DNA of 64,000 bases from Escherichia coli phage NG_S8, in sequence record LC788711.1; one strand, 5' to 3'. Position numbers and translations under genes: made by a program. Below are positions 7,795 through 38,710 of this stretch, piece after piece. A model generated the notes under the pieces. That model searched no databases and was not told the origin of the DNA. It saw only the letters and a list, made by a program, of their open reading frames with translations. Each line of letters opens with the position of its first letter. The stretch's first letter is position 1.

Positions 7795-10185
7795 TTACAG
7801 GTTACAACCACCTGATGCACAACCTGCTGCTTCTTCACCAGCTCCACCACCATTTTCAGTGTTGAAGTTAGCGTAGTACCAAGTTTTCCAACCGTACTTA
7901 ACAGCAGTCATGAAATCACGAACTACTACTGGACCAGGAATGATTTCATTCTCAAACTTGGTGTAGTCATAGTACATATTCGTACTGATAGACTGACTGA
8001 AAAATTTCTGCATGGTTGCTACCCATTTGATCCACTCGATACGATCTACATCATAAGCCAGTTTATAGCTCATTAATGTATCCCAATCAGTTGCACCTGG
8101 AGCAATTGCAATTACTTTATTCACTGCACTACCCTTGATAGATACGATCTTACGAGGCGGTTCAATAGAGTTAGTAACACCTAGCAGTACAGAGGAACTT
8201 TCACCTGGCATCTGAGCAGTCAGAACAGAGTTACGCATACCATATTTCAGAATATCTGCACGCAGAGATTCCCAATCCATTTCTAGACCTACAGTTACCA
8301 GTTCATCAACAGTTTTCTTATACGTGTCGATTACCAGAGTTCCTTGTGAAGGCTTAGTACGATTAAACCAGTCACATGCACCCTGTTCTTTGGCCAGACG
8401 TACAGAGGCTTTGTGCAGGAAGTAGGACAGCTTTTCAGCTTCACGGTGAATCCAGTTACGTGCTTCAACACCTTCGTAAGCCAAACCTTCTGCTGCCATT
8501 GCACCTGCTGCGTTCATCAGACCAATACCAACGTTACGACGTTTCTTAGCCGTGTATTCCATAGTTGGGAATGGATAATCCTGAATCTCGATGATTGTAT
8601 CAACGAATTTCAGAAGGATGTAGCAAGTTTTCTCCCATTCAGCCAGAGATTCCATGCGGCCTAGTACAACACCACCTAAGTTACACAGAGATACTTCACC
8701 AATATCTTCTGGACGCATATCGTCTAACTGATCTTGGGTTTTATACAGTTCCGTAATGTGATGGAATGGACGGGTTGGCTGAGTAATTTCAACACAAAGG
8801 TTGGTCATACGAATCGGGTCAAGGAAGTTACCATGACGGTTAGATTCACCAATGTGATGAGCATACATACGCCCCGTTTCCATACGGATACGCAACCAAG
8901 TATCTAGGATTTCTTTTGCAGAGATTCTAGGAGCTGCTGGAATTGTTTTTCCTTCGTGGTCGATCTTTGTAAGAGATGCCACACGTTTCTCCGCTGCCAC
9001 GTAGATTTCTTCAAACTTAGCCTCATCTTCGCCATAAAACGCTTCATGAACTTCTGGTGCGTAGAAATAGGACATTAGCGTAATATCTTCGCTTTTCAGG
9101 TAACGTTTTAACAGAAGGTTGTTAAAGCTCAGAGAGTAATCCATTTTATCGATTTTATTCTCGTCTGTAGCACGTTGTTGTTTAACCTGCATCAACTGAA
9201 TGATTTCAGGATCGAAGTATGGATAAGACACAGTAGCAGAACCGCCACGGGTTTGCTGAGTGTTAGCTTTTACTGAACGGTCAATGTGTCGATAATATGG
9301 CAGTTTTCCGGAATGCGGGAATGCCCCATTTCGCACCGGATCAGCAATTGATCGGCTTTCAAGATGATACCCGATTCCCGCTCTGGCTGCGACCATTTTG
9401 AAGACGATGTGCTCGGCTGTGTCGATTGAATCCAGCGTGTCAGTGGAATCCACGAGGCAACAACTAGCAAATCCACGGTCACTAGAGCGCAGGCCAACCA
9501 GTGGCGGCGTAGGAACGTTGATTTTGTGGAGCGACATTGCATTGTAGAGGTCGATTGCATCTAGAATTGTCCAGTTAGGTTGAGATAACATCGCCATTGC
9601 CATACCCATGTAGGCAAACTGCGGGGTTTCATAAATTTCACCAGTTGCAATATTACGACGAGAATACTTGTCGAAGAACTGTTTCAGTCCACCACTGGTG
9701 AATAAACGATCGCGATCATGATCAATAACTTGGTTCAGAGCGTCAAACTGATCATCGCTAATCCATGCACTCATGTCTTCCCAAGCGCCAACACGAACCA
9801 TATGATCGTGGAAGAAACGCAGAGAAGGTGGTTCGAAGGAATCATATAGGCGTTTACGCATCTGCGCAAGACGTAATTCCTTTGCTGGCACATCGTATGC
9901 TGGATTATCTTTGATAAGACCTTCAGCGGCTTTAATTAACGCATCCATTAGGGTATCGGAATCTACAACACCTTTAGGTAGAGTTTTTTGAGCAGACATA
10001 GTGATGGCTGACCAGCTCACATCAACTGTTTTGCAGCCATATACTGCCCAACCATTGAGTTTTTCAGGAGCAAAGTCTTCTACAGTACCGTCACGTTTAA
10101 TTACTTTTGTAATTCTAAAGTCCATTGCGGTTTCCTTTTTATAGTTCTCAGGATTTAGATAGTATTCTACTTTGTTTTGAGTCAT
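7795..10185 (-). CDS. nrdA: ribonucleotide reductase class Ia alpha subunit
   Basis: ATP-cone ITKVIKRDGTVEDF, C-terminal Cys pair (GCASGGC), 796 aa; true start may be the internal Met of MDFRITKV. Confidence 0.95.
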   Translation of the reverse strand: MTQNKVEYYLNPENYKKETAMDFRITKVIKRDGTVEDFAPEKLNGWAVYGCKTVDVSWSAITMSAQKTLPKGVVDSDTLMDALIKAAEGLIKDNPAYDVPAKELRLAQMRKRLYDSFEPPSLRFFHDHMVRVGAWEDMSAWISDDQFDALNQVIDHDRDRLFTSGGLKQFFDKYSRRNIATGEIYETPQFAYMGMAMAMLSQPNWTILDAIDLYNAMSLHKINVPTPPLVGLRSSDRGFASCCLVDSTDTLDSIDTAEHIVFKMVAARAGIGYHLESRSIADPVRNGAFPHSGKLPYYRHIDRSVKANTQQTRGGSATVSYPYFDPEIIQLMQVKQQRATDENKIDKMDYSLSFNNLLLKRYLKSEDITLMSYFYAPEVHEAFYGEDEAKFEEIYVAAEKRVASLTKIDHEGKTIPAAPRISAKEILDTWLRIRMETGRMYAHHIGESNRHGNFLDPIRMTNLCVEITQPTRPFHHITELYKTQDQLDDMRPEDIGEVSLCNLGGVVLGRMESLAEWEKTCYILLKFVDTIIEIQDYPFPTMEYTAKKRRNVGIGLMNAAGAMAAEGLAYEGVEARNWIHREAEKLSYFLHKASVRLAKEQGACDWFNRTKPSQGTLVIDTYKKTVDELVTVGLEMDWESLRADILKYGMRNSVLTAQMPGESSSVLLGVTNSIEPPRKIVSIKGSAVNKVIAIAPGATDWDTLMSYKLAYDVDRIEWIKWVATMQKFFSQSISTNMYYDYTKFENEIIPGPVVVRDFMTAVKYGWKTWYYANFNTENGGGAGEEAAGCASGGCNL

Positions 10186-10248
10186 TATGCAAGTACAATT
10201 TTTCAGATAAAAAGAGCCCGGATATTTTCATACCCAGGCTCGTCTGTC

Positions 10249-10491
10249 TTACCATTTAAGTTTATCGGCTTGATCAAGTAATTGCTGTTGTATTTCTTGG
10301 TTAAAGAGAATATCTACAGAAGTACTTAGTTCATTATAATTGAAAGGCCGATTTGGATTAGAGGCTACAATTTTCCACGCTAGGGTAGTCTTAGGACTTT
10401 CTTCCCCTTCCTTACGTGTAATCATATTAGCAGCGCTCAGTGAAGTACGGTGGATCTTAGTTTTGCGGTGCAGATGTACGACGTTTCCCAT
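10249..10491 (-). CDS. hypothetical protein
   Basis: 80 aa ORF between nrdA and phoH. Confidence 0.4.
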   Translation of the reverse strand: MGNVVHLHRKTKIHRTSLSAANMITRKEGEESPKTTLAWKIVASNPNRPFNYNELSTSVDILFNQEIQQQLLDQADKLKW

Positions 10492-14065: not shown

Positions 14066-14228
14066 TTTAGAAAATATGCTTATGGAGCAGTGGAATGCTG
14101 GGTATAATGCTGGAGTAGCTACCTGTATTGCTGGTTTGGATATGCTTATTAAGCAAGAGAAGGTTCGCCCAGAAGAAGCAATTCTGCTCCAAAATATCAT
14201 CGAAGGATTCAAGCAAGGAATCATATAA
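14034..14228 (+). CDS. hypothetical protein (start uncertain; the track begins this frame at 13950)
   Basis: ATG at 14034 (MDFLNQ...) gives a 64 aa product ending just before the Sir2-like gene; overlaps the previous ORF in another frame. Confidence 0.35.
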   Translation: MDFLNQNLKSNLENMLMEQWNAGYNAGVATCIAGLDMLIKQEKVRPEEAILLQNIIEGFKQGII

Positions 14229-15079
14229 TGCGTAGACTAATCGTTGTTAGTGGTGCAGGTTTGAGTGTAGATAGTGGTGTTCGTGCTTTCCGTACTGATA
14301 CTGCTAGTGGGAAATCCTTGTGGGATGAGTACGATCTAGAGGAAGTATGTAGCTTGCCTAACTTTGAAGCTGGCTTCCGTCGCTTCTGTGGTGAAGATGA
14401 TCCTAACTACTTCAGTGCTCGTTTCCCTGGCATTGATAAAGATGGTAACGATCTGTATCTCAAGACTCATGAGTTCTACAACATGCGTCGTCAGGAATTA
14501 CAGACTGTTGAGCCTAACATTGCCCATCTGCGAATTGCAGAATGGTTCCAGCGTTATGGTGCGGATAGCGTGAAGAACTTCACTACTAACGTTGATGACC
14601 TTCTGGAACGTGCTGGTATCCCTCGTGATGAAATCATTCACGCTCACGGGTACTTGAAAGAGGTGATCTATCGTCAGGGTCGCAACCAAATCATCGAAGA
14701 TGTTGGGTATACTGCGATTGCCCCTGAGGATTACGAATGGGTAAAACCAAACGTAACATTCTTTGGTGAGACGGCTCCGTGGTATATGGGTCAGATTAAC
14801 CTGTTTGATACACTTACTAGCAATGATATGGTTATTGTAGTAGGTTGTAGCAACCAAGTAATCGACTTCAACTGGGAGCTATTTCCTGCTGTATGTCGTG
14901 GAACTAAGATGATGGTTGTTAACCCACAAGTTCGTTATGACGAACAGCTTGAGTATGAGAAACGTGGTGTTACTGTATGGCGTGCTGGAGCTGCCGAAGT
15001 TTTTGGTAATAAACACTTTATTGATCAAGTTGAAGCTTTTATGGAGGGAAATATTTATGTCCCAGAAAAGCATGTGTGA
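14228..15079 (+). CDS. Sir2 (sirtuin)-like NAD-binding protein
   Basis: VVSGAGLSVDSGVRAFR (GAGIS..SGIP.FR), TTNVDDLLERAG (TQNIDGLHERAG), HAHG (catalytic His), VVGCS (VVGTS); no CxxC...CxxC zinc ribbon. Confidence 0.8.
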   Translation: MRRLIVVSGAGLSVDSGVRAFRTDTASGKSLWDEYDLEEVCSLPNFEAGFRRFCGEDDPNYFSARFPGIDKDGNDLYLKTHEFYNMRRQELQTVEPNIAHLRIAEWFQRYGADSVKNFTTNVDDLLERAGIPRDEIIHAHGYLKEVIYRQGRNQIIEDVGYTAIAPEDYEWVKPNVTFFGETAPWYMGQINLFDTLTSNDMVIVVGCSNQVIDFNWELFPAVCRGTKMMVVNPQVRYDEQLEYEKRGVTVWRAGAAEVFGNKHFIDQVEAFMEGNIYVPEKHV

Positions 15080-15239
15080 TCTTTTAGTATGGCCAGACGG
15101 TAGTTGGTGCTACCGTTTCGAATTTGCTACTGATGACTTCTCATGGAAGAGTGATGATTTCTGCGTTATCTATGAGGATACAGCAGAATGGAAAGAGTTC
15201 CTTATTAAGGAGGGAGAATATGGTGAAGAAGATTTTTAA
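15055..15239 (+). CDS. small hypothetical protein
   Basis: ATG at 15055 with GGAGGG 8 nt upstream; 61 aa; overlaps the Sir2-like stop. Confidence 0.4.
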
Positions 15240-15405
15240 GGGTATCTGGAAAGGTCTAGTATGGTTTGTCAACCTAATCGGTATGATTACCATTTATTCT
15301 CTGTTCCTATCTGTTATGTGGGGTAAAGGTGAATTGAAGGTTCCAGTTCCTTTTACTGATGAAGTTAAAGTCTGGACGTGGGATGCTACTGGTGGAAATA
15401 AGTAA
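15220..15405 (+). CDS. small membrane protein
   Basis: ATG at 15220 after AGGAGGGAGA; 61 aa with one hydrophobic helix (GLVWFVNLIGMITIYSLFLSVMW). Confidence 0.45.
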   Translation: MVKKIFKGIWKGLVWFVNLIGMITIYSLFLSVMWGKGELKVPVPFTDEVKVWTWDATGGNK

Positions 15406-15899
15406 TACTCCTGTGATTTTCCTGGATATTGATGGGGTGCTCAATTCGAGCATCTCTCACCATCATGCTCCAGATAGTGAGAAGCTATTCTTTGGGGGTG
15501 ATTGGGTTTACAAGCCATTACTCCAGGCTTTTCAGAACTTTCTTGAGCCATCCCCAATAATGATTGTTGGGGTATCTTCATGGTTTTCTGTACGAAATGA
15601 AATGGAGAACGTTCAGATTATGACCGGACTCGGTTTGATCGATCGTTTTCTTGGTACAACAGATTTTACTGGAGGTGGTTTATCTCGGGGGTAATTCTGT
15701 TTTACGTTTTGTCGAAAAATATAAGCTCAAGCATTGGTGTGTCCTAGATGATGCTGGTGCTATGATGTATCAATTTCCTACTGTTATTGTAAACGGCAGG
15801 ACTGGAATAAACCTTCAAGATTTAAACGCTATCAGCTATATGCTGGAGTTTAGTCCAGATCTTGAAATGTGTAAGGCTCTTCAGAAACTTAAGGTATAA
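15359..15899 (+). pseudogene. HAD-superfamily phosphatase-like gene split by a frameshift at a G5 run (15687-15691)
   Basis: HAD motif I FLDIDGVLNS in frame A (15359-15694), motif-III-like VLDDAG in frame B (15651-15899); removing one G from GGGGG joins the frames into one ORF of about 180 aa. Confidence 0.5.
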
Positions 15900-15901
15900 G
15901 C

Positions 15902-16330
15902 ATGTTCAATAATATTTTCATGAAAGAGGTAAATCCTATGCTTCTCAACTTCTGGCGCTCTCTCCCTAATGGTATGTATAATGAAACCATCAATCTCCTT
16001 AAGATTTGGTGTGAGAATAACGATATCTTCCTGTCTTTTAAAGGCCCGCTAGAGGAAGCTCCGTGTATTGGAGTTAGTGTGGATTTAGGCGAGGGAGTAG
16101 AAGAGATTGTAGACTGGAAAGAACTTGATGAAATGGGTCTGGTTTTTGCCTTGAACCATAAGCTGTTTATGCCTGCAAATCACCGTCTTATTGTAAATTA
16201 TCGCACTGGTGAAGCTCCTGCTTTCCAGGTAAATGAACGTGAGGGCTGGTCATACTCGCCCGGGGAAGTAAATGAGGGGATTCAGAAACTTCGTCGTTTC
16301 GGGTATATGATCCCAGGTTTAACTGCTTAA
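15902..16330 (+). CDS. hypothetical protein, paralog A of a tandem pair
   Basis: 142 aa; C-terminal region aligns to the next ORF (W.EL..MGL..ALN...F.P......TGE.P...V.....W.Y...........L.R.G...PGL). Confidence 0.6.
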   Translation: MFNNIFMKEVNPMLLNFWRSLPNGMYNETINLLKIWCENNDIFLSFKGPLEEAPCIGVSVDLGEGVEEIVDWKELDEMGLVFALNHKLFMPANHRLIVNYRTGEAPAFQVNEREGWSYSPGEVNEGIQKLRRFGYMIPGLTA

Positions 16331-16339
16331 GGAGGCAGA

Positions 16340-16735
16340 ATGGAACAAGTATTTTGGCGTCAGATAGATCCTAGTTTGGTAGAGCGTGCTGAGGGGCTCC
16401 TTGCACGTTGGTTGGGGGTTGACAAGGTTAGTGTAACATTTCCGTTTACTTCTGTAACAGACCCTAGTGTAGGAGTCTTTGTGGATGAAGATGAAGATGA
16501 TGGTTGGGAAGCTGACTGGAATGAATTGTCCAGCATGGGCTTGATTGTTGCCCTCAACTTCTCTATATTCCATCCACGTGGCTTAGCCATTACACGTGAC
16601 CCCGAAACTGGTGAATCCCCTTATCTTTTGCAAGTAGAAGATGATATTTGGGAGTACACCGAAGATATTCTCGAAGAAGCTAAAGGTCACTTAAATCGCA
16701 TTGGGATCTATGTCCCAGGCCTAAATGATGATTGA
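16340..16735 (+). CDS. hypothetical protein, paralog B of a tandem pair
   Basis: 131 aa; shares the motif skeleton of the preceding ORF; GGAGGCAGA RBS before the ATG. Confidence 0.6.
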   Translation: MEQVFWRQIDPSLVERAEGLLARWLGVDKVSVTFPFTSVTDPSVGVFVDEDEDDGWEADWNELSSMGLIVALNFSIFHPRGLAITRDPETGESPYLLQVEDDIWEYTEDILEEAKGHLNRIGIYVPGLNDD

Positions 16736-16759
16736 TTTTCATTAGCCCAATCCTGATTA

Positions 16760-16786
16760 CCGAGTCATTTTGGCTCGGTTTTCTCT
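16760..16786 (+). terminator. intrinsic terminator
   Basis: Hairpin CCGAGTC-ATTTT-GGCTCGG followed by TTTTCTCT. Confidence 0.6.
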
Positions 16787-21131: not shown

Positions 21132-21360
21132 ACTAACTGATCTGTTAAAAGCTGGAGACGTAAAATATCTCCAGCGAACTAGTTGGGAAAATAATAAAGA
21201 TTACACAGTAATCCTGAAATTCTTTGTAGATAGCAATACCGTACGCCAGTACGTGTGGATGCCTTTTGATACATCATTATTCCCAAGTGATGAAGTGTGT
21301 GAACTAACCCTAGAAGAAGCCCTGGCCGACGATTGGGAGATCGTTGAACTAGATGTGTAG
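21124..21360 (+). CDS. hypothetical protein
   Basis: 78 aa, start overlaps the previous stop. Confidence 0.5.
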   Translation: MSKLTDLLKAGDVKYLQRTSWENNKDYTVILKFFVDSNTVRQYVWMPFDTSLFPSDEVCELTLEEALADDWEIVELDV

Positions 21361-22626: not shown

Positions 22627-22655
22627 ATTTATATAAATTGATGAGAGGATCAATT

Positions 22656-22856
22656 ATGGCAATGACAATAACACTTCCAAAGATTCAAGCAAAACTTAAT
22701 TTGCTCTCCATAGCAAGAATCAATTACCAGGATAGTATCGGCACTCCAAACCAGAAAGCGTACAAAGATGCGTGGTTGAAAGAAGCTGCTGATTTAGCTG
22801 GTATGGCTGCTCAGTATAATAAAGAACTCAAAATGGAAATCGCAGACGATGAATAA
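22656..22856 (+). CDS. small hypothetical protein
   Basis: ATG at 22656 after the GAGAGGA RBS (the track start at 22638 lies inside the leader); 66 aa. Confidence 0.5.
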   Translation: MAMTITLPKIQAKLNLLSIARINYQDSIGTPNQKAYKDAWLKEAADLAGMAAQYNKELKMEIADDE

Positions 22857-38694: not shown

Positions 38695-38710
38695 TTTTTT
38701 TTTTTTTTTT
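38695..38710. repeat. T16 homopolymer tract
   Basis: 16 consecutive T on the plus strand in the non-coding region. Confidence 0.95.

What the first reader, a model, noticed from the sequence alone, without database searches (positions are those of the whole stretch)
15359..15899. HAD-like phosphatase gene interrupted at a G5 homopolymer
Two overlapping ORFs in adjacent frames together carry HAD motifs (DIDGVL in the first, VLDDAG in the second). Deleting one G from the GGGGG run at 15687-15691 gives a single ORF of about 180 aa. This is a sequencing or assembly indel, a recent pseudogene, or a site where slippage gives both truncated and full-length products.
Basis: seen in the sequence. Interest (0 to 1): 0.5.

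Follow-up and report, generated by a model that had tools for sequence, protein, structure and literature searches.

The report
One-base frameshift in phage phosphatase gene
In this T5-like phage, one extra G cuts a small, conserved phosphatase gene (the T5.105 family, next to the phage sirtuin) in two; it is a one-off knockout mutation or a sequencing slip, not a programmed feature, so it is ordinary.

Summary
GGGGG lies at 15687-15691. ORF1 (to the TAA at 15692-15694) and ORF2 (+1 frame, to 15899) are two halves of one domain. Removing one G gives a 171-aa protein that is 100% identical to the intact protein of Salmonella phage SH9 and covers the whole Pfam HAD_SAK_2 model.

The gene is T5.105/T5p103. 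It is conserved next to a Sir2 gene in T5-like phages and is under strong purifying selection (dN/dS 0.04-0.10). The G5 allele is a singleton:
- 0 of 188 related phage records carry it.
- It is absent from IMG/VR, JGI metagenomes and GTDB genomes.
- The truncated products are absent from the large protein collection.

It is the only coding 1-nt indel private to the window in 64 kb. The break falls at invariant R102-G103, so ORF1 is a clean truncation lacking the catalytic DD motif. ORF2 has no credible start.

Programmed or leaky +1 frameshifting is not supported. The shift is not conserved, the SD-like sequence is 12 nt away rather than 3, the stop context is TAA-T, and there is no downstream structure.

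The two live options are a recent real loss-of-function allele (about 0.58; relatives show at least five other independent lesions) and an isolated sequencing error (about 0.34). Only the reads can separate them. Interest is low.

The parts
15383..15694 (+). ORF1: the N-terminal 103 codons of the T5.105-family HAD_SAK_2 phosphatase gene, then a premature stop. Alternative starts are ATG 15359 and GTG 15392. Residues 1-103 are unchanged relative to the intact SH9 protein.
   Evidence: (Pfam positions 1-78, E 2.3e-10)
15419..15445 (+). HAD motif I, FLDIDGVLN (nucleophile D15 and D17). Invariant in 19 homologues.
15575..15586 (+). HAD motif II, SSWF (S65 invariant, S66 nearly invariant).
15668..15691 (+). 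Conserved TGGGLSRG loop (T96, G97-G99, R102, G103). R102 is the probable motif III basic residue. The frameshift sits in the last two codons.
15687..15691 (+). G5 run. Relatives have CGGGGT (G4), CGAGGT or CGTGGT here. The extra G is private to this window.
15692..15694 (+). Premature TAA stop created by the frameshift. It is followed by T, which is a strong termination context.
15690..15899 (+). C-terminal 69 codons (G103 to V171, then the stop) of the same gene, stranded in the +1 frame. Undecayed: 100% identical to SH9. The mechanical ORF2 (15651..15899) begins at a TTG with no SD sequence.
15747..15752 (+). HAD motif IV, D122 D123 (invariant). In this window it can be read only in the +1 frame.
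14228..15079 (+). Intact Sir2-family gene, the conserved partner of the HAD gene in T5-like phages.
   Evidence: (PF02146, E 1.3e-21); PMC9503650 section 3.7.3

Best explanation
The window comes from a T5-like phage (Demerecviridae, Epseptimavirus-like). Positions 15383-15899 are its copy of gene T5.105/T5p103. This is a cap-less HAD-superfamily phosphatase of about 171 aa (Pfam HAD_SAK_2) that sits in one early operon with the phage Sir2 gene. Published comparative work predicts that the pair processes phosphate ends arising in NAD+-dependent RNA-end repair, or ADP-ribose phosphates.

In this genome a single G has been added to a G4 run, most likely by replication slippage. Translation then stops at TAA immediately after residue G103. 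The product is the first 103 residues (motifs I and II and the TGGG..R loop). It lacks the strand carrying the invariant DD (motif IV) and the rest of the Rossmann-like core, so it should be inactive. The downstream part has no usable start and is probably not made.

The allele is very recent, with no further decay, and it knocks out a non-essential accessory gene.

Shown: the insertion, its uniqueness, the domain split, conservation and purifying selection of the gene, and the dispensability of the gene in relatives. Inferred: that the extra G is in the phage DNA rather than only in the assembly, that the truncated protein is inactive, and the biochemical role of the enzyme.
For: The site and ORFs are as described. 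Relatives have one base fewer exactly here and a single CDS of 168-171 aa.

The gene is functional in the lineage, with dN/dS 0.04-0.10 in both halves. The lesion is recent: the repaired protein is 100% identical to SH9, and SH9 matches the window across 15000-16400 except at this site.

The assembly is not noisy. The window has 176 homopolymer runs of 5 nt or more. In 64 kb aligned to seven relatives, this is the only coding 1-nt indel private to the window.

Real inactivation of this gene has precedent:
- the +A allele is shared by misterkot and PMBT26, isolated in different labs, hosts and countries;
- deletions remove sir2 and part of T5.105 in DT57C and SHSML-45;
- S.Ent 1-35-3 has a -T frameshift and A148 has a stop at W67.

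ORF2 has only TTG 15651 (no SD) and GTG 15675 (GGAG directly abutting) as possible starts before the DD motif.
Against: No reads are available, so an isolated homopolymer miscall gives exactly the same picture: a singleton with no downstream decay in a gene under strong purifying selection. The allele has no independent sighting in any collection. Inactivity of the truncated protein and lack of ORF2 translation are inferred, not measured. The enzyme's substrate is only predicted (PMC9503650).
Confidence: 0.58

Rival explanations
1. Sequencing or assembly artefact. The phage really has G4 (CGG GGT) and an intact 171-aa gene. One G was over-called in the consensus, as can happen at homopolymers on 454, Ion Torrent or nanopore platforms.
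For: The change is a +1 in a homopolymer. It is a singleton among 188 aligned relatives and absent from all other collections. The gene is under strong purifying selection. The repaired product is 100% identical to a deposited intact protein. All contigs with identical neighbouring proteins have the intact gene.
Against: No other private coding indel occurs in 64 kb, despite 176 runs of 5 nt or more, including 23 runs of 6 nt and one of 16. An error-prone consensus would be expected to fail first in the longer runs. The gene demonstrably suffers real lesions in relatives, at a rate that looks higher than the chance that a single stray error lands in this 516-nt gene.
Confidence: 0.34
2. Recoding. 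GGG-UAA acts as a '+1 shifty stop'. tRNA-Gly slips from GGG to GGU, so the phage makes both a 103-aa truncated protein and some full-length enzyme, and the allele is a hypomorph or a regulated two-product gene.
For: The geometry allows it. A +1 slip on GGG|U with the stop in the A site would give exactly the wild-type sequence. The first two anticodon positions can re-pair on GGU. Low-level leakiness of frameshift mutations at stops is a known phenomenon (established knowledge; Weiss et al. 1987, as cited in PMC12421855).
Against: The frameshift is not conserved. Among 188 aligned relatives, 19 IMG/VR T5-like loci and all the more distant homologues, none shares it. The SD-like GGAGGT ends 12 nt before the shift codon rather than 3 nt. 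The stop is TAA-T rather than the weak TGA-C (compared with PMC12421855). The third-position re-pairing is a mismatch. There is no downstream structure (z -0.28). G5 is too short for known transcriptional slippage.
Confidence: 0.04
3. Split enzyme. ORF1 and ORF2 are translated separately, and the two fragments assemble into an active HAD phosphatase.
For: Both halves are undecayed, and ORF2 mechanically opens at TTG 15651, which overlaps ORF1.
Against: No homologue anywhere is split in this way. TTG 15651 has no SD sequence, and GTG 15675 has GGAG directly abutting it. The next in-frame starts (ATG) lie after the DD motif. The break cuts between core elements of a single Rossmann-like domain. 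The lack of decay is explained equally well by recency.
Confidence: 0.02

Closest known systems
T5.105 / T5p103 orthologues in T5-like phages (for example Salmonella phage SH9 ASZ77823.1, Stitch CPT_Stitch112, DaisyDussoix bas31_0053)
   Same: Same locus, same neighbours (Sir2, two small ORFs, HAD, two DUF7415 genes). The sequence is 100% (SH9) to about 88% identical once one G is removed.
   Different: Those genes are a single ORF of 168-171 aa. Here the ORF is broken by +G at R102/G103.
Pfam PF18143 HAD_SAK_2 ('HAD domain in Swiss Army Knife RNA repair proteins') and the sirtuin + SAK-like HAD neighbourhood of 'SP15-like' phages (Iyer et al. 2022, PMC9503650, section 3.7.3)
   Same: The repaired protein matches the full-length model. 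An intact Sir2 gene lies 300 nt upstream. SP15 itself is among the hits.
   Different: The published role (clean-up of 2',3'-cyclic or 2'-phosphate RNA ends, or of ADPr>P) is a computational prediction. In this genome the HAD partner is interrupted while Sir2 is intact.
Cap-less (C0) HAD phosphatases with solved structures: MDP-1 (1u7o/1u7p) and SCP1/FCP1 CTD phosphatases (1t9z, 4xq0)
   Different: Only 13-16% sequence identity and no detectable sequence match to any PDB chain. The TGGGxxRG loop is specific to this family. The substrate is unknown.
prfB (RF2) programmed +1 frameshift
   Same: A sense codon followed directly by an in-frame stop, where a +1 slip would restore the long ORF.
   Different: prfB has a conserved SD-like AGGGGG 3 nt upstream, a CTTT slippery site and the weak TGA-C stop, and it is conserved across bacteria (PMC12421855). 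Here the SD-like sequence is 12 nt away, the site is GGG-T, the stop is TAA-T, and no relative shares the shift.
Other broken alleles of the same gene: misterkot/PMBT26 (+A), S.Ent 1-35-3 (-T), A148 (W67 stop), DT57C and SHSML-45 (deletions)
   Same: Independent inactivation of T5.105 in otherwise normal T5-like genomes.
   Different: The positions and mutation types differ. None has the G5.

Membership tests
HAD superfamily / Pfam PF18143 HAD_SAK_2 | Profile match above Pfam's gathering score | tested here: met
   Repaired protein: 66.3 bits against a cutoff of 27.5, model positions 1-138 of 139. ORF1 alone: 41.4 bits. ORF2 alone: 15.6 bits, below the cutoff.
HAD superfamily / Pfam PF18143 HAD_SAK_2 | Motif I DxDx(T/V), the nucleophile and acid/base Asp residues | tested here: met
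   D15-I-D17-G-V19 at 15425-15439; invariant in 19 homologues.
HAD superfamily / Pfam PF18143 HAD_SAK_2 | Motif II Ser/Thr | tested here: met
   S65 invariant and S66 nearly invariant (SSWF, 15575-15586).
HAD superfamily / Pfam PF18143 HAD_SAK_2 | Motif III Lys/Arg | tested here: inconclusive
   R102 is invariant within TGGGxxRG and lies at the start of the helix before the motif IV strand. I did not verify its equivalence to the canonical motif III Lys by superposition.
HAD superfamily / Pfam PF18143 HAD_SAK_2 | Motif IV acidic pair (DD), in the same polypeptide as motifs I-III | tested here: not met
   D122 and D123 are present and invariant (15747-15752), but in this window they lie in the +1 frame after the stop at 15692-15694. 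The feature is met in all relatives examined.
HAD superfamily / Pfam PF18143 HAD_SAK_2 | Rossmann-like HAD fold | tested here: met
HAD superfamily / Pfam PF18143 HAD_SAK_2 | Mg2+-dependent phosphatase activity and substrate | not testable with these tools
   No experimental study of T5.105 or PF18143 was found in the paper library.
Sirtuin + SAK-like HAD neighbourhood of T5-like phages (Iyer et al. 2022) | Sir2-family gene in the same conserved neighbourhood | tested here: met
   14228-15079, PF02146, E 1.3e-21. 19 of 19 T5-like IMG/VR loci show Sir2 - HAD - DUF7415. The linkage is also kept, in inverted order, in Pantoea phage AAS21.
Programmed +1 ribosomal frameshift (prfB type) | The frameshift is conserved among orthologues | tested here: not met
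   0 of 188 aligned phage records carry the G5. All homologues are single ORFs.
Programmed +1 ribosomal frameshift (prfB type) | SD-like element 3 nt upstream of the shift codon | tested here: not met
   GGAGGT lies at 15671-15676, 12 nt before GGG at 15689. Spacing rule from PMC12421855.
Programmed +1 ribosomal frameshift (prfB type) | P-site codon that re-pairs in the +1 frame | tested here: inconclusive
   For GGG to GGU, the first two positions re-pair and the third does not for a CCC anticodon (read from the sequence). Efficiency was not measured.
Programmed +1 ribosomal frameshift (prfB type) | Poorly terminating stop context (TGA-C) | tested here: not met
   The stop is TAA followed by T.
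Transcriptional slippage site | Long A or T run (typically 8-9 nt or more) | tested here: not met
   The run is five Gs. The length requirement comes from established knowledge, not from a tool.

The most novel reading that the evidence does not exclude
The G5 is real, and the GGG-UAA junction is a leaky '+1 shifty stop'. This phage would then make mostly a 103-aa fragment plus a small amount of wild-type enzyme, turning an ordinary frameshift into a tunable hypomorph of a counter-defence gene linked to NAD+/ADP-ribose metabolism. My evidence argues against anything programmed but cannot exclude read-through at the percent level.
Probability: 0.04. Interest if true: 0.4.

Novelty: already known. 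Interest (0 to 1): 0.12.

Why it matters
The finding matters little in itself. It is a single-genome, single-base interruption of a known, computationally described accessory gene, so the annotation should read 'frameshifted T5.105-family HAD phosphatase (pseudogene or sequencing error)' rather than two hypothetical proteins.

There are two modest by-products. First, T5.105 is strongly constrained across T5-like phages yet has been knocked out independently at least five or six times. That pattern is typical of a host-dependent counter-defence gene, and natural knockouts such as this one (if real) are ready-made material for finding the host condition under which the gene matters. Second, the gene is widely mislabelled 'Sir2 (NAD-dependent deacetylase)' in RefSeq records. 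Anyone counting phage sirtuins should exclude it.

Tried and rejected
1. Looked for the G5 allele elsewhere. The 101-nt megablast gave no 100% match among 188 records. Exact 24-mer scans of IMG/VR, JGI metagenomes and GTDB genomes gave 0 hits. Exact look-ups of four possible truncated products found none on record. The window's own genome is apparently not in any collection, so an independent assembly could not be consulted.

2. Tested for a generally indel-prone assembly and rejected it. The G is the only private coding indel in 64 kb. A second candidate at 10306 proved to be an alignment artefact in a mosaic patch, and the 80-aa ORF there is intact.

3. Asked whether the three independent frameshifts (window, misterkot/PMBT26, S.Ent 1-35-3), all within 45 nt, mark a hotspot. 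All three lie in the last five of the gene's 13 runs of 4 nt or more. A rough post hoc probability is about 0.06, so this is not significant.

4. Tested for +1 recoding signals. There is no prfB-like SD spacing, no weak stop and no downstream structure.

7. Considered whether the HAD protein is the known NARP1-associated phosphatase Adpp. It is not, because Adpp is a Macro-domain protein.

Full report
**1. What is in the sequence**

The window reads ...ACT GGA GGT GGT TTA TCT CGG GGG TAA T... with GGGGG at 15687-15691 and TAA at 15692-15694. ORF1 (15359..15694) contains FLDIDGVLN. ORF2 (15651..15899) is in the +1 frame and contains VLDDAG. Removing one G joins them into one ORF.

**2. Origin of the window and of the extra G**

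The region is 98-99.8% identical to many T5-like phages of Salmonella and E. coli (Demerecviridae, Epseptimavirus/Tequintavirus). 407 records match it. Close relatives annotate a single CDS of 507-516 nt here (SH9, DaisyDussoix, Stitch). A nucleotide alignment puts the length difference exactly at the G run: relatives read CGGGGT, SH9 reads CGAGGT, and two others read CGTGGT, which is a synonymous polymorphism in codon R102.

None of the 188 records that align over a 101-nt probe matches it at 100%. The best hits all lack one base. The G5 24-mer is absent from IMG/VR, JGI metagenomes and GTDB genomes. None of four possible truncated products exists in the large protein collection. Contigs that encode exactly the same Sir2 or DUF7415 neighbours all carry an intact gene of 168-179 aa. 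The allele is a singleton.

**3. What the gene is**

The repaired protein matches Pfam PF18143 (HAD_SAK_2) over model positions 1-138 of 139 (E 4.7e-18). ORF1 covers positions 1-78 and ORF2 covers 92-138, so one domain has been cut in two. The homologues found are all single-domain proteins of 153-188 aa. Their alignment shows these conserved elements:
- invariant F13-N21 (motif I, DIDGV);
- S65/S66-W-F (motif II);
- T96-G-G-G..R102-G103;
- D122-D123 (motif IV).

In T5 nomenclature the gene is T5.105/T5p103. It lies in an early, rightward operon: nrdD, small ORFs, Sir2 (14228-15079, PF02146), two small ORFs, HAD, two DUF7415 paralogues, then a terminator-like hairpin at 16759-16779.

Iyer et al. 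2022 (PMC9503650, section 3.7.3) described exactly this neighbourhood in 'SP15-like' phages. They predicted that the sirtuin acts like KptA on RNA 2'-phosphates, and that the 'Swiss-army-knife-like' HAD processes terminal phosphates or the ADPr>P by-product. That is a prediction. I found no experimental work on the family.

My own context survey agrees that the family is tied to NAD+/ADP-ribose genes:
- 19 of 19 T5-like IMG/VR loci show Sir2 - HAD - DUF7415.
- Pantoea phage AAS21 keeps HAD and Sir2 together, in inverted order.
- In Serratia phage ChuuTotoro the HAD gene overlaps a Prs-like/Nampt-like pair that fits the definition of NARP1.
- Five of 60 distant loci have a Nampt-like gene within 6 kb, and two of those also have Sir2 and a Prs-like gene.

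**4. Consequence of the extra G**

The insertion lies in codons R102/G103. Because CGG GGG still encodes Arg-Gly, ORF1 encodes residues 1-103 unchanged and then stops. The fragment keeps motifs I and II and the TGGG..R loop. It lacks helix 100-113, the strand carrying the DD, and everything after it, so it should neither bind Mg2+ nor fold as a HAD core. This is inferred from established HAD enzymology.

In ORF2's frame, the only start codons before the DD are TTG 15651, which has no SD sequence, and GTG 15675, which has GGAG directly abutting it. Independent translation of the C-terminal part is therefore unlikely.

**5. Programmed or leaky frameshifting?**

A +1 slip of tRNA-Gly from GGG to GGU, with the stop in the A site, would give the wild-type protein, so the idea is geometrically possible. 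The defining features of the prfB-type site are an SD-like sequence 3 nt upstream, a re-pairing slippery codon, a weak TGA-C stop, and conservation (PMC12421855). They are mostly absent here. The only SD-like sequence (GGAGGT, which encodes part of the conserved TGGG) ends 12 nt upstream. The stop is TAA-T. Re-pairing is imperfect. There is no unusual downstream structure (z -0.28). No relative has the shift. Five Gs are also too few for known transcriptional slippage (established knowledge). I put recoding at about 4%.

**6. Real mutation or sequencing error?**

Both options predict a singleton with no downstream decay, and only reads can decide. Three pieces of circumstantial evidence lean towards a real allele.

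(a) The assembly is otherwise clean. The window has 176 homopolymer runs of 5 nt or more. In 64 kb aligned to seven relatives at 97.7-99.4% identity, this G is the only coding 1-nt indel private to the window. A second candidate at 10306 turned out to be an alignment artefact in a mosaic patch.

(b) The gene really does get knocked out in nature:
- misterkot and PMBT26 share a +A frameshift 25 nt downstream, although they were isolated on different hosts in different laboratories.
- DT57C and SHSML-45 have deletions that remove sir2 and the 5' part of T5.105.
- S.Ent 1-35-3 has a -T frameshift, and the 'unverified' A148 record has a stop at W67.

(c) The gene is nonetheless under strong purifying selection (dN/dS 0.07-0.10 against Tequintavirus orthologues; about 0.10 in the N-terminal part and 0.04 in the C-terminal part). 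Any knockout we see must therefore be recent, which fits the 100% identity of the repaired protein to SH9 and the identity of SH9 and the window across 15000-16400 except at this site.

I estimate about 0.58 for a real recent loss-of-function allele and about 0.34 for an isolated error.

**7. Verdict**

This is an ordinary single-base interruption of a known, conserved phage accessory gene. It is correctly spotted and correctly attributed to a HAD phosphatase, and there is no evidence for programmed slippage. Novelty: already known in kind. Interest is low (0.12). The remaining value lies in the recurrent-loss pattern of T5.105 and in its unexplored link to NAD+/ADP-ribose metabolism.

Noticed in passing
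window 15383-15899; RefSeq records such as NC_047999.1, NC_048145.1, NC_047754.1: The HAD gene is labelled 'Sir2 (NAD-dependent deacetylase)' in many RefSeq and Pharokka-style annotations. The label traces to PHROG 18062, a 92-aa profile that matches only residues 80-171 of the HAD protein. It was probably seeded by truncated or chimeric ORFs such as DT57C's 'defective Sir2', which is fused to the T5.105 C-terminus. The protein has no Sir2 domain. The true Sir2 gene is the neighbour at 14228-15079.
   Followed up: partly
L003/L004 (misterkot, PMBT26), L013 (S.Ent 1-35-3), L006 17465-17980 (A148), L014 (SHSML-45), L015 (DT57C): At least five other independent lesions of the same gene exist in relatives. 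They are +A in an A5 run (shared by two isolates), -T in a T4 run, a stop at W67, and two deletions that also remove sir2. This occurs despite family-wide dN/dS below 0.1, a pattern that suggests a conditionally useful (host-dependent) gene.
   Followed up: partly
L027 4001-7217 (Serratia phage ChuuTotoro, ON287369.1); L105/L109 (IMG/VR contigs): A HAD_SAK_2 homologue (40% identity) overlaps by 4 nt a Prs-like gene, which is followed by a Nampt/NAPRTase-family gene. That arrangement fits the NARP1 (Adps + Namat) NAD+ reconstitution operon. The known NARP1-associated phosphatase (Adpp) is a Macro-domain protein, so this HAD could be a non-homologous analogue (an ADPR-phosphate phosphatase). Two IMG/VR contigs have HAD, a Nampt-like gene, Sir2 and a Prs-like gene all within 6 kb.
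   Followed up: partly
window 14228-15079 compared with L031-L049: The Sir2 gene comes in two deeply divergent types among T5-like phages (about 98% versus about 51% amino-acid identity to the window's copy), while the adjacent HAD gene stays at 86-91%. This indicates a mosaic or recombination boundary between the two partners.
   Followed up: no
window 15902-16330 and 16340-16735: Two tandem paralogous genes of unknown function, both DUF7415 (PF24187), lie immediately downstream of the HAD gene. The first starts 2 nt after the HAD stop codon. They are conserved in all 19 T5-like loci examined.
   Followed up: no
window 38695-38710: An intergenic T16 tract whose length differs by 3 nt among close relatives. 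It lies at the junction between the replication/recombination genes and the tail genes on the opposite strand.
   Followed up: no
window about 9887-10310, and 21195-21300 / 22648-22661: Short mosaic patches where the window diverges sharply from some relatives but not others. One covers the C-terminal end of an 80-aa gene and the 5' end of nrdA; the other is an indel-bounded segment near 21.2-22.7 kb. They look like typical recombination mosaics, and the ORFs are intact.
   Followed up: partly
window 15494-15498: A second GGGGG run lies inside the same gene, in frame (Gly-Gly codons). It is shared with SH9 but reads GGTGG or GGAGG in most relatives. The window/SH9 haplotype is therefore unusually rich in G runs in this gene.
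   Followed up: no
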